A DNA stretch of 64,000 bases, from positions 1,736,001 to 1,800,000 of the forward strand of contig NZ_JAFEUW010000001.1 of assembly GCF_025028335.1 (NCBI RefSeq), written 5' to 3'. Position numbers: made by a program. The stretch is from Brachybacterium sillae (GTDB taxonomy: Bacteria > Actinomycetota > Actinomycetes > Actinomycetales > Dermabacteraceae). Position 1 is the stretch's first letter, and each line of letters starts with the position of its first letter. Positions 3,001 through 6,000 of the stretch are shown here, in pieces.

Positions 3001-6000
3001 GCGGCACCGCCGGCAGGGCCGGCGTCGACGAGGTGAACCCGCGGATCGAGAACCGTGACGGTCACGTGGTCGAGATCGACGAGCGTGGTGACCAGACCTC
3101 CACCACCTTCGCGTGGAACCTGCTGCTGGTGTGCGGTGACCCCAAGCAGGGTGACCAGACCTACTTCGGCGGCTTCCCCGTCGACAAGGTCTCGCCGATC
3201 TCCTGCCCGGACAACCTGGCCTTCGACTCCGTGGGCAACCTGTGGATCTCCACCGACGGCCAGCCCGGCGGCATCGGCTACAACGACGGCCTGTTCCGCG
3301 TCACCCTGGAGGGCGAGGCCCGCGGCCGCGTCGAGCAGTTCCTCTCCGTGCCGCGTGACGCCGAGACCTGCGGTCCGATCGTCCGCGACCGTGACCTGTC
3401 GGTCTTCGTCTCCGTGCAGCATCCGGGCGAGGAGGGCACCTTCGAGGCGCCGAACTCCTACTTCCCGGATTACGCCGGCACCGGCCCGAAGCCGACCGTG
3501 GTGCACGTGCTGCCCTCCCGCCCGCCGTTCACGGACATGCGGCCCGGGTACGAGCACTACGACGCGGTGCTGTGGGCCTGGCACCGGGGCATCGTCAAGG
3601 GCTTCCCGGATGGGACCTACCGTCCGCTGGCCCCGGTGAACCGTGACGCCATGTGCGCCTTCCTGCACCGTCTCGCCGGGTCCCCCGAGGTGGATCGCCC
3701 GCGCTCGGAGCCGTTCCGCGACGTGCGTCCGGGTGTGGAGCACTACGAGGCGATCATCTGGGCGTACCAGATGGGCATCGCCCGCGGCTGGCCAGACGGA
3801 ACCTTCCGCCCCACCCAGCCGATCAACCGCGACGCCATCGCCGCGTTCATCTACCGCTACGCCGGGTCCCCGTCGTTCCCCAAGCCCACCACCCCGCCGT
3901 TCCGTGACGTGCCGGTGACGATCCCCTTCGCGAAGGAGATCGCCTGGCTGAAGGCCGAGGGCATCACCAAGGGCTGGCCGGACGGCACCTACCGTCCGTG
4001 GACCACGGTGAAGCGCGACGCCATGGCGGCCTTCCTGTTCCGCATCAAGGAGGAGCAGCAGATCGCCTTCAAGGCGGCGGGCTGATCGTCCCTCACGGCG
4101 CCACGGGACCGAGGCGCCGCTGACGCCCGACGGGGCGGGTCCCTCCGAGCCACGTGCTCGGCGGGGCCCGCCCCGTCGTCACCCCCACCCCCTTCTCGCC
4201 CCGCGGACTCTCTGGGCGCTGGGGGTGGGCCCTGGTATCGTCGCCCGCGGTGCGCCGGGAAGTCTGGTCGGCAACGCAGCCTCGGCTGCCGAGACCACGC
4301 GCGTGACGCCCCGAGCGAAGGAGCCCGAATGCCCGGACCGCCGATGGCCCCCACGTCGGCCCCCTCCACTCGCAGAGTCGAGCCCCGCGCATGATCGCCC
4401 TGCCCCTCACCCTCGGCATCCTGGCCCTCGCAGTCCTGCTCACCCCGCTGCTGGTGCGTCTGCTGGGCCGCAATGCCAACCTGGTCCTCGCCGCCCTCGA
4501 CCTGGCGGCGGCCGTCGCGTTCCTGCCCGCTGTGCAGGCGGTGCTGCCCGCCGAGCACGCCGGCGGGGGCGGGGCCCGTGCCCCCACCTGGTCGATGCCG
4601 TGGGCACCCGCCTGGGACGTGAACCTGGCGCTGCGAGCCGACGGGCTCGGCGTCGTGTTCACCCTGATCGCCCTGCTGATCGGCGCCGTGGTGCTGGCCT
4701 ATGCCGCCCGGTACCTGCCGCCGGGGCGCGACCTCAGCTTCCCGCTGCTCATGGCGGGTTTCACCCTGTCGATGGTGGCGCTGGTGCTCGCCGACGACCT
4801 GGTGGTCCTGTTCATCGCCTGGGAGCTGACGTCCATCGCCTCGTTCCTGCTGGTGGCCCGCTCCGGTGGGGCCGGGCACGGCGCTTCGATGCGCACCCTG
4901 TTCATCACCTTCGTCGGCGGGGTGTCGCTGCTGTCGGCGCTCGCGCTGATCATCGTGCGCACCGGCACCACCTCCCTCAGCGAGGCCCTCGCCCACCCGG
5001 TGTGGAGCAGCGACCCGCGTCTGGCCACGACGGTGGCGCTGCTGGTGGCGCTCGCGGCGATGACGAAGTCCGCGCAGTTCCCGTTCCACGTGTGGCTGCC
5101 CGACGCGATGGCCGCCATCACCCCGGTCTCGGCCTACTTGCATGCCGCCGCGGTGGTGAAGGCCGGCATCTTCCTGCTGCTGCGGTTTAGCCCGCTCGGC
5201 GCGCTGGTGCCCGCCTGGTCGGTGGTGCTGATCGCGGCGGGTCTGGTCACGGCGATGGTCGGCGGTGTGCTCGCGCTGCAGCAGCCCGACTTGAAGAAGC
5301 TCATGGCGTATTCGACGGTCTCGCAGCTGGGCCTGATCGTCACCCTCATCGGCGTGGGCACGGAGCTCGCGCTCACCGCCGCGGTGCTGCACACCATCGC
5401 CCACGCGCTGTTCAAGTCCGGCCTGTTCATGATGGTGGGGGTGATCGACCACGCCGTCGGCACCCGCGAGCTGCGGCGCATGCCGGCCCTCGGCCGCGTG
5501 ATGCCGGTGAGCTTCGCCGTGACGGTGCTGGGTGCCGCGTCGATGGCCGGGATCCCCCCGATGCTCGGCTTCGTCTCCAAGGAGTCGCTGCTCACCGGTG
5601 CCCTGTCGCTGGGCGGTGAGGGCGTGTGGGGTTGGGTGGTGGCCCTGGGCATCGCCGCCGCCTCCGTGCTGACCTTCGCCTACTGCGCGAAGATCGTGCT
5701 GGGCGTGTTCGTCGACGGTCGCGACCCGGCCCTGGACGAGCCGGTCGCGGCGCCGGCCACGGCGGATCCCGAGACCCCCCACCACGACAGCACCGGCGCC
5801 CTGCTCGACGCCCACCATGCGCACCGGCCCGGTGCGCTGTTCCTGGGGGCGGCCGCGCTGCCGATCCTGGTGAGCGTGCCGCTGGCCCTGGTCGTCGGCC
5901 TGCTGGATGCGCCGGTGGCTCGCGCCGTCGAGGCCGCCATGGCCCTGCCGGCGGGGGAGAGCCACGTGCATCTGGCGCTGTGGCACGGCCTCACCCCGGA

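What a model noticed while it worked through the whole genome (the two positions that open the first line are those of the whole stretch)
4249..4300. Actinobacterial 5-prime leader RNA motif (GGUGYGCCGGGAAGUCUGGUCGGC) ahead of Na+/H+ antiporter genes, here the mrp opero [...]
The leader of the second mrp operon (g01566-01571) begins with a 24-nt conserved motif followed by a variable hairpin. The same motif starts the leaders of non-homologous cation antiporter genes (NhaA, NhaP/CPA1, Mrp) across Actinomycetota, the pattern of a cis-regulatory RNA, probably a sodium-, lithium- or pH-sensing riboswitch candidate.
Evidence so far: Conserved in G061. An exact 19-nt scan gave over 123 loci from Streptomyces, Nocardia, Mycobacterium, Arthrobacter, Acidimicrobiia, Gaiellales and others; the five bases before it are GGWGH or GGCGY in 77 of 80. 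Of the first 50 downstream frames handed in, 25 were NhaA, 4 NhaP-type, 2 DUF2254, 1 ABC, 18 without a match. A -10 element lies just upstream in 48 of 80 against 0 on the other strand; a downstream complement of the GGUCGG end in 58 (loose pattern; call 131). Tandem copies occur. No Rfam match in 13 loci; nhaA-I and nhaA-II models do not hit this site.
(Added by a program. Inside this text positions count along the whole contig: contig position 1,736,001 is position 1 of the stretch shown here. "Call 12" and the like, gene names such as g00115 and contig names such as C1 are that model's own, and its searches are not shown. The text may have been shortened before it was handed on; [...] marks where a part breaks off. 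The agent that wrote the report below was given it as the finding of a first reader that could run no searches.)

Follow-up and report, generated by a model that had tools for sequence, protein, structure and literature searches.

The report
Tiny RNA switch for sodium pumps
A 25-letter RNA hairpin, kept almost letter for letter in front of sodium/proton exchanger genes in two bacterial phyla and not found in the RNA catalogue or papers I could search, likely switches these genes on, and the signal is most likely sodium or lithium, though this is untested.

Summary
The motif is real: exact at 4249-4272, 7 nt after a -10-like box, ahead of a complete mrp operon. It occurs in 117 of 401 genomes of the window's phylum (control: 1 match) and 32 of 251 of a second phylum; about 17,000 stretches are estimated.

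It behaves as RNA. Its 4-bp stem compensates, and positions 5 and 25 swap between U·G and C·A, an isosteric wobble, at least 15 times on an NhaA tree while avoiding C-G. Of 113 downstream frames, 81 are NhaA, CPA1, Mrp or CaCA antiporters. In copies with a U tract, the motif's 5' half pairs into a terminator-like helix that excludes the stem (46 of 73; shuffles 3), pointing to an ON switch.

No Rfam family matches, nhaA-I and Na+-I included. Ligand, protein-free binding and transcription start are untested; ribosome-site occlusion was not motif-specific, and how this copy switches is unclear. The scan noted the same motif earlier on other genomes.

Verdict: strong candidate for an undescribed, very small cation riboswitch class; a protein-bound RNA is the main rival.

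The parts
4236..4241 (+). -10-like promoter hexamer TATCGT, 7 nt before the motif
   Evidence: row G000; spacing of 6-8 nt is the commonest in relatives; transcription start not measured
4249..4273 (+). 25-nt conserved RNA motif (candidate aptamer): head GGNG, C5·A25 wobble (4253·4273), stem P1 4254-4257 with 4269-4272, near-invariant 11-nt loop with a possible G11-C16 pair (4259-4264)
   Evidence: the 11-16 pair rests on one compensated nhaA copy
4276..4289 (+). variable 5-bp hairpin, not conserved in relatives
   Evidence: flanks
4288..4297 (+). stretch complementary to the 3' half of the motif; predicted competing helix that would exclude P1
   Evidence: predicted folds; class-wide enrichment of CGACC
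4317..4323 (+). Shine-Dalgarno-like GAAGGAG
   Evidence: read from the sequence
4329..4394 (+). 21-codon upstream ORF whose stop overlaps the mrpA start (ATGA); possible translational coupling; not seen as a general feature of the class
4391..7498 (+). mrpA' (MrpA-B fusion type), first gene of the Mrp Na+/H+ antiporter operon
   Evidence: NF009290, 1025.9 bits, over its cut-off of 980
7495..10778 (+). mrpC (7495-8016), mrpD (8016-9584), mrpE (frame 9425-10099, likely start 9581), mrpF (10096-10356), mrpG (10365-10778)
   Evidence: C, D, F, G hits significant but under the curated cut-offs; MNHE

Best explanation
This is a 25-nt structured RNA at the front of cation-antiporter mRNAs that likely acts as a riboswitch ON switch, most likely for Na+ or Li+. 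Shown by comparison: the four-pair stem P1 with a terminal U·G/C·A wobble; its sense position in leaders of four antiporter families in two phyla; and, in a subset, a downstream strand plus U tract that pairs with the 5' half of the motif and so cannot coexist with P1. Inferred: a bound ion would stabilise the compact P1 fold during transcription and block that terminator (transcriptional copies) or a competing helix next to the ribosome-binding site (most actinomycete copies), so more exporter is made when cytoplasmic Na+/Li+ rises. For this copy the likely route is release of the 4288-4297 helix and translation of the short upstream ORF coupled to mrpA; that step is the least supported.
For: Stem: with positions 5-9 and 21-24 left free, 148 of 150 listed matches pair fully, 6 of them by double changes of three types (read by eye). 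Chance loop matches in viral contigs pair fully in 2 of 49. A-U at 6-24 appears in the second phylum. In 68 distinct, variant-enriched 25-mers: 6-24 GC63/UA3/AU2; 7-23 CG59/UA6/GC1/2 unpaired; 8-22 CG67/UA1. Wobble: U·G 55, C·A 35, C-G 1 of 125 (about 19 C-G expected if independent, from the base frequencies). At least 15 switches on a 62-row NhaA tree; 11 independent pairs, 8.6 the same way, 0 the other way, p about 0.004. UG and CA form one isosteric group (PMC2673412, passages read). Genes: 81 of 113 first frames are NhaA 56, CPA1 14, Mrp 6 (own copy included) or CaCA 5; 7 of 7 CBS-first loci continue into an IT-family or CPA1 transporter; 18 of 24 in the second phylum; 28 of 44 in the metagenome set. 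Terminator-like helix: the pattern left the 3' strand free, yet 46 of 73 distinct copies have a helix of 8 bp or more ending at the U tract, against a shuffled mean of 3.1 (max 8); 14 of 204 genome copies against 2.8; folds. The same aptamer-versus-terminator logic is validated for Na+-I (PMC9337991, passages).
Against: No ligand data at all. Ribosome-site occlusion is not shown to be motif-specific: opening energy 9.3 kcal/mol free, 7.2 with P1 held, but 8.9 with a shuffled motif (p 0.08, n 116); for this copy it is 5.3 free against 6.2 with P1 held, so no gain. The P1-only fold costs about 13 kcal/mol in the nearest-neighbour model, far more than a millimolar ion supplies, so the model needs kinetic control or unmodelled tertiary contacts. 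The terminator-like copies are related to one another, were selected for a U tract, are a small minority (about 170 stretches estimated), have long loops, and a simple terminator scan did not flag L223. Some regulated genes are not Na+ exporters: DUF2254, ABC ATPases, TrkH, Usp, NfeD, a methyltransferase. At 25 nt it would be smaller than the natural aptamers I recall. Two of 150 stems are broken.
Confidence: 0.5

Rival explanations
1. It is a protein-free RNA ON switch, but the signal is not Na+/Li+: protons (alkaline pH), K+, or a small molecule such as c-di-AMP.
For: NhaA, Mrp, CPA1 and CaCA also serve pH and K+ balance (general knowledge). A C·A wobble needs a protonated A (general knowledge), and 35 of 125 copies, this one included, have it. 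CBS, TrkH and Usp genes occur in the regulon.
Against: The proton-independent U·G replaces C·A freely, so shape, not protonation, looks conserved. The c-di-AMP riboswitch known in Streptomyces is the ydaO type and turns genes off (PMC10117811, passages). NhaA dominates the gene list, as it does for the Li+ classes.
Confidence: 0.22
2. It is an RNA element bound by a protein (an antiterminator or translational activator) that does the sensing.
For: A near-invariant loop on a short stem suits protein recognition. A protein could supply the roughly 13 kcal/mol by which the competing fold wins.
Against: The loop is almost unchanged across two phyla, which would need an equally conserved partner. 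No regulator family appeared among the first or second downstream genes scanned; upstream neighbours and whole genomes were not searched for one.
Confidence: 0.2
3. It is a DNA operator or initial-transcribed element overlapping the transcription start.
For: Usual position 6-8 nt after the -10 box; the arms form an inverted repeat; U·G and C·A are strand mirror images of each other in DNA.
Against: Double changes outnumber single ones and coexist with the consensus in one genome (G165, G632, G111, G243, G704). The perfect C-G is avoided. A G·U stem variant heads an nhaA gene (L190). The distance to the promoter varies up to 50 nt. The covarying terminator strand only makes sense in RNA.
Confidence: 0.04
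4. It is a highly reduced member of the nhaA-I / Na+-I family.
For: Same gene partners; shares short words (GGUG, GGUCGG) with the published nhaA-I constructs.
Against: No model hit at the site. One hairpin instead of two. The CGG here lies in a covarying stem, whereas in nhaA-I the matching word sits in the conserved P2 loop (my reading of the sequences). nhaA-I is reported from Proteobacteria.
Confidence: 0.04

Closest known systems
Li+-I riboswitch (nhaA-I, RF03057) and its Na+-II variant (White et al. 2022, PMC9646797; parts 1-3 of 6 of the text and supplement 1 read)
   Same: 5' leaders of nhaA and other cation/H+ antiporter genes; ON logic; mostly presumed translational with a minority of terminator-bearing copies.
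   Different: Two-hairpin RNA of about 55-70 nt, reported from Proteobacteria; the model does not hit this site; here a single 25-nt hairpin in Actinomycetota and a second phylum.
Na+-I riboswitch (DUF1646, RF03071; White et al. 2022, PMC9337991, passages read)
   Same: Regulates unrelated Na+-handling genes; aptamer and terminator are mutually exclusive, giving an ON switch.
   Different: P1 plus P2 architecture; reported from Firmicutes, Proteobacteria, Acidobacteria, Verrucomicrobia; no match in this genome at E up to 10. There the terminator forms at the expense of P2; here it takes the 5' half of the motif.
Li+-II riboswitch (nhaA-II, RF03038)
   Same: Upstream of nhaA.
   Different: 84-position model, 38 representatives; no hit at the site.
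The same motif in earlier notes of this scan (e1-5228694, e1-5452620, e1-9912965, e1-4966774, e1-7095344, e1-2419823)
   Same: Same 24-25-nt hairpin before cation transporters of Actinomycetota.
   Different: Unchecked AI notes, one marked 'part of it fell' without detail; not independent support. The few lines shown do not mention the wobble covariation, the second phylum or the terminator.

Membership tests
Riboswitch (general) | Lies in the 5' leader, sense to the gene | tested here: met
   Sense frame within 260 nt matched a Pfam family in 102 of 113 copies; -10 box upstream. The start site itself was not measured.
Riboswitch (general) | Conserved secondary structure with covariation | tested here: met
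   control
Riboswitch (general) | Heads non-homologous genes of one function | tested here: met
   NhaA, CPA1, Mrp, CaCA, IT-family, P-type ATPase
Riboswitch (general) | Expression platform exclusive with the conserved fold: terminator type | tested here: met
   46 of 73 against 3.1 shuffled; by prediction, in a subset of related copies only
Riboswitch (general) | Expression platform exclusive with the conserved fold: ribosome-site type (this copy) | tested here: inconclusive
   CGACC complement enriched but occlusion not motif-specific
Riboswitch (general) | Binds its ligand without protein and changes expression | not testable with these tools
   needs probing and transcription assays
Li+-I / nhaA-I (RF03057) | Covariance-model score at or above 37 bits | tested here: not met
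   no hit at the site at E up to 10 (which scored 150 of 1542 candidates); none at the motif in 40 further loci
Li+-I / nhaA-I (RF03057) | Two hairpins with conserved P1 base and P2 loop | tested here: not met
   one conserved hairpin; flanks unconserved; compared by eye with the constructs
Na+-I / DUF1646 (RF03071) | Covariance-model score at or above 40.5 bits | tested here: not met
Li+-II / nhaA-II (RF03038) | Covariance-model score at or above 70.4 bits | tested here: not met

The most novel reading that the evidence does not exclude
A new, very common riboswitch class whose 25-nt aptamer, smaller than the natural aptamers I recall, binds Na+ or Li+ directly in a pocket built from invariant guanines and a wobble-capped four-pair stem. 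It would be the main sodium/alkali regulator of Actinomycetota and part of a second phylum, acting by anti-termination in some lineages and at the ribosome-binding site in others.
Probability: 0.45. Interest if true: 0.9.

Novelty: new variant of a known kind. Interest (0 to 1): 0.8.

Why it matters
Validated Na+ and Li+ riboswitches are not reported from Actinomycetota in the two papers read, and the authors expect further sensors (PMC9646797). This motif is estimated in about 17,000 genome stretches, against 944 nhaA-I and 308 Na+-I representatives in those papers (older, differently counted databases). It would explain how streptomycetes, mycobacteria and their relatives tune Na+/H+ antiporters. 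A 25-nt ion sensor would be a minimal model of how RNA tells alkali ions apart, and a compact biosensor part. The terminator-type copies make the ligand question testable in a single in vitro transcription experiment. It also ties uncharacterised genes (DUF2254, CBS plus IT-family pairs, some ABC exporters) to ion balance.

Tried and rejected
RNA reads: no RNA holder was listed for window 3900-5400; this says nothing about expression.

Published start-site tables: S. lividans supplement 5 gave no row that I could tie to a motif copy; the S. coelicolor and M. smegmatis supplements gave no motif sequence.

Structure alternatives: the register 6-20 to 10-16 is 96% compatible but has no compensation, so it is unsupported. 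Pairing of position 3 with 15, 17 or 25 shows no covariation. A two-tier G-quadruplex using G22-G23 is not required, since compensated stems remove that tract. A pseudoknot G1-G2 with C16-U17 could not be tested because both sides are near-invariant: one nhaA copy has G2C without a change at 16 (L219), one has G11A with C16U (L430), and one leader copy has G11C without a change at 16 (L197).

Whole-motif duplex energy with the linker is no better than shuffles. The 5'-head complement near the start codon is only weakly enriched and shows no clear covariation in non-terminator copies.

Viral contigs: 0 exact matches; the 60 loose matches served as a chance control. The 'Saccharibacteria' title of L115 is misleading: its phylum draw repeats rows. 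A model search of 151 second-phylum genomes added no new type. The ORF-overlap test was too noisy in GC-rich DNA to use.

Rows dropped: likely chance or duplicate loci (L011, L194, L196, L198, L203-L206, L210; L193, L215) were left out; one search used 116 of 157 copies (those with a recognisable SD and start); one search used 140 of 182; one search used 44 of the 68 headed copies.

Full report
OBSERVATION. A TATCGT box lies at 4236-4241, a small hairpin at 4276-4289, and an Mrp operon starts at 4391: MrpA' passes its NCBIfam cut-off, C, D, F and G hit below theirs, and E hits Pfam MNHE. A model built from the motif finds only this strong site in the genome. A second mrp operon has no motif, and tblastn found no NhaA, CPA1 or CaCA homologue at E 1e-8. 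The leader also holds a Shine-Dalgarno-like stretch (4317-4323) and a 21-codon ORF whose stop overlaps the mrpA start. The nine mrpA-like leaders of same-genus genomes that I examined lack the motif.

SPREAD. With up to two mismatches, 117 of 401 genomes of the phylum match; the reversed control gave 1 match. A collection scan listed 124 loci from 1 of 64 parts and estimated about 17,000 stretches. Of the 124 titles, 122 are actinobacterial, one reads Chloroflexi and one Saccharibacteria; the last proved to be in the window's own phylum. In the phylum of the Chloroflexi-titled genome, 32 of 251 genomes match (35 matches, 21 exact; control 3). Other phyla were not searched genome by genome. Viral contigs hold no exact copy. 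The tallies include genomes marked unpublished (G120, G174, G226, G148, G082, G343; G668, G442, G464, G459; G746); no structural claim rests on them.

GENES. For 113 copies (32 from genome-search loci, 81 from the scan) the best sense frame within 260 nt was scanned against Pfam: NhaA 56, CPA1 14, Mrp 6 (own copy included), CaCA 5, CBS 7, DUF2254 5, ABC 2, one each of CitMHS_2, P-type ATPase, TrkH, Amt, CDF, APC and peptidase S15, and 11 without a hit. All 7 CBS genes are followed by an IT-family or CPA1 transporter. In the second phylum 18 of 24 frames are CPA1, CaCA or NhaA. In the metagenome set 28 of 44 are, with 8 without a hit. Further partners are ABC ATPases, NfeD, Usp and a methyltransferase.

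STRUCTURE. When only the -10 box, head and loop were fixed and the stem left free, 164 of 301 class genomes matched (206 matches; control 6). Of the 150 rows listed, read by eye, 142 have the consensus stem, 6 have compensated stems of three kinds and 2 are broken (the pattern excluded T at position 24). Chance loop matches in viral contigs pair fully in 2 of 49. A fourth compensated type, A6-U24, occurs in the second phylum and in metagenome loci. Counts on a deliberately variant-enriched alignment of 68 distinct 25-mers are. Positions 5 and 25 covary in a non-Watson-Crick way: U·G 55, C·A 35, U-A 11, A·A 10, C-G 1 of 125. On a FastTree of 62 NhaA proteins the U·G/C·A state changes at least 15 times, and in 11 independent pairs position 25 follows position 5 in 8.6, opposes it in none, p about 0.004. 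Stombaugh et al. (PMC2673412, passages read) place cis Watson-Crick UG and CA in one isosteric group. A DNA palindrome would favour C-G; a folded RNA explains its avoidance. The loop is nearly invariant: a search for changes at C16 in 381 genomes gave 6 matches (control 2), of which one is a true nhaA leader, with G11A and C16U together. That is single-case support for an 11-16 pair.

POSITION. A TAnnnT box lies 6-8 nt upstream in 74 placements among 125 copies (3 on the other strand; 35 copies have none within 2-19 nt), so the motif usually starts the transcript by inference. Many Streptomyces nhaA copies sit about 25-35 nt further in (by eye), and L223 sits 50 nt after its box. No start site was measured. 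Two copies in one leader were not seen; back-to-back copies are common.

SWITCH LOGIC. In several second-phylum and family f19 copies the 5' half of the motif pairs with a strand just downstream that ends in a U tract. To test this without building it in, I scanned metagenomes for the core plus five T, leaving the strand between free (123 loci, about 170 estimated). Of 73 distinct copies, 68 carry the GGNG head that was not asked for, and 46 have a helix of at least 8 bp from the motif's 5' half to the U tract, against 3.1 (max 8) in 100 shuffles; the partner letters follow changes at positions 3 and 5. These rows are related, so they are not independent, but they fall into several distinct sequence types. 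Such a helix excludes P1, so P1 would be the read-through state, the logic validated for Na+-I. Most actinomycete copies have no U tract and a short leader (median 60 nt to the start codon). There the complement of G18-G22 is enriched (54 of 140 against 23.6), often starting at positions 35-37 and mostly ending 0-8 nt before the SD. But computed occlusion of the ribosome site was not specific to the motif (9.3 against 8.9 kcal/mol with a shuffled motif, p 0.08), and for this copy holding P1 did not open the site. The ON direction for translational copies, this one included, is therefore inferred from the terminator copies and from gene function. The P1-only fold is about 13 kcal/mol less stable than the competing fold in the model, which requires kinetic control, tertiary contacts, or a protein.

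MECHANISM AND ODDS. A cis-acting RNA ON element: about 0.9 in all. Split: direct Na+/Li+ sensing 0.5; direct sensing of pH, K+ or a small molecule 0.22; protein-bound RNA 0.2; DNA element 0.04; reduced nhaA-I member 0.04. The ligand is inferred only from gene partners.

COMPARISON. Rfam 15 gives nothing at the site or at the motif in 40 other loci; the nhaA-I, Na+-I and nhaA-II models miss the site. It works like the Li+-I, Na+-II and Na+-I riboswitches (PMC9646797, parts 1-3 and supplement 1 read; PMC9337991, passages) but fails their model and architecture tests, so it is not filed with them.

PRIOR DESCRIPTION. Ten literature searches were run; four spellings of the 15-nt core gave no paper. 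The main texts of PMC5737381, PMC8632094, PMC11109978 and PMC12452182 were searched by term and do not describe it in the passages seen. The one supplement file held for PMC8632094 had no hit. The supplement of PMC11109978, which covers a Streptomyces genome and lists further weak candidates, could not be read, and subscription papers are not covered, so prior description is not excluded. The scan noted the same motif on other genomes; one note is marked as partly fallen, without detail.

VERDICT. A real, abundant, apparently undescribed structured leader RNA with good comparative evidence for RNA structure and, in a subset, for an anti-termination ON switch. It is a strong candidate for a new cation riboswitch class with an unusually small aptamer; ligand and protein independence are open.

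Noticed in passing
window 4329-4394: 21-codon upstream ORF with its own strong SD, stop overlapping the mrpA start (ATGA).
   Followed up: partly
L040-L048 (same-genus mrpA-like leaders): These leaders lack the motif. They show a -10-like box followed almost directly by an ATG, mostly opening a short, similar ORF just ahead of the mrpA frame: a possible leaderless upstream ORF (read by eye).
   Followed up: no
L106, L197, L199, L201, L202, L317, L355: Back-to-back motif copies 87-300 nt apart at divergent promoters; several face an nfeD-like gene.
   Followed up: partly
L185:548, L186:2562, L187:2052: A U6-A24 stem variant in family f7 always heads a DrrA-like ABC ATPase in the three cases seen; such exporters may move Na+ (analogy to NatAB recalled, untested).
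   Followed up: partly
L064, L076, L094, L113, L127, L308: DUF2254 membrane proteins recur behind the motif, hinting at a role in ion balance; two are split into two frames (L064, L127).
   Followed up: no
L072, L092, L143, L162 and other Streptomyces nhaA leaders: An A-rich spacer of roughly 25-35 nt separates the -10 box from the motif.
   Followed up: no
window 1311-4085 and about 4129-4177: Upstream gene is a PhoX alkaline phosphatase with S-layer homology domains, followed by a long inverted repeat that probably ends its transcript.
   Followed up: no
window 10788-11414 (minus) and 11417-12727: IS5-family transposase piece directly after mrpG, then a Schlafen/AlbA_2-domain gene.
   Followed up: no
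L115 (G708): Record titled Saccharibacteria, but its phylum draw is that of the window.
   Followed up: yes
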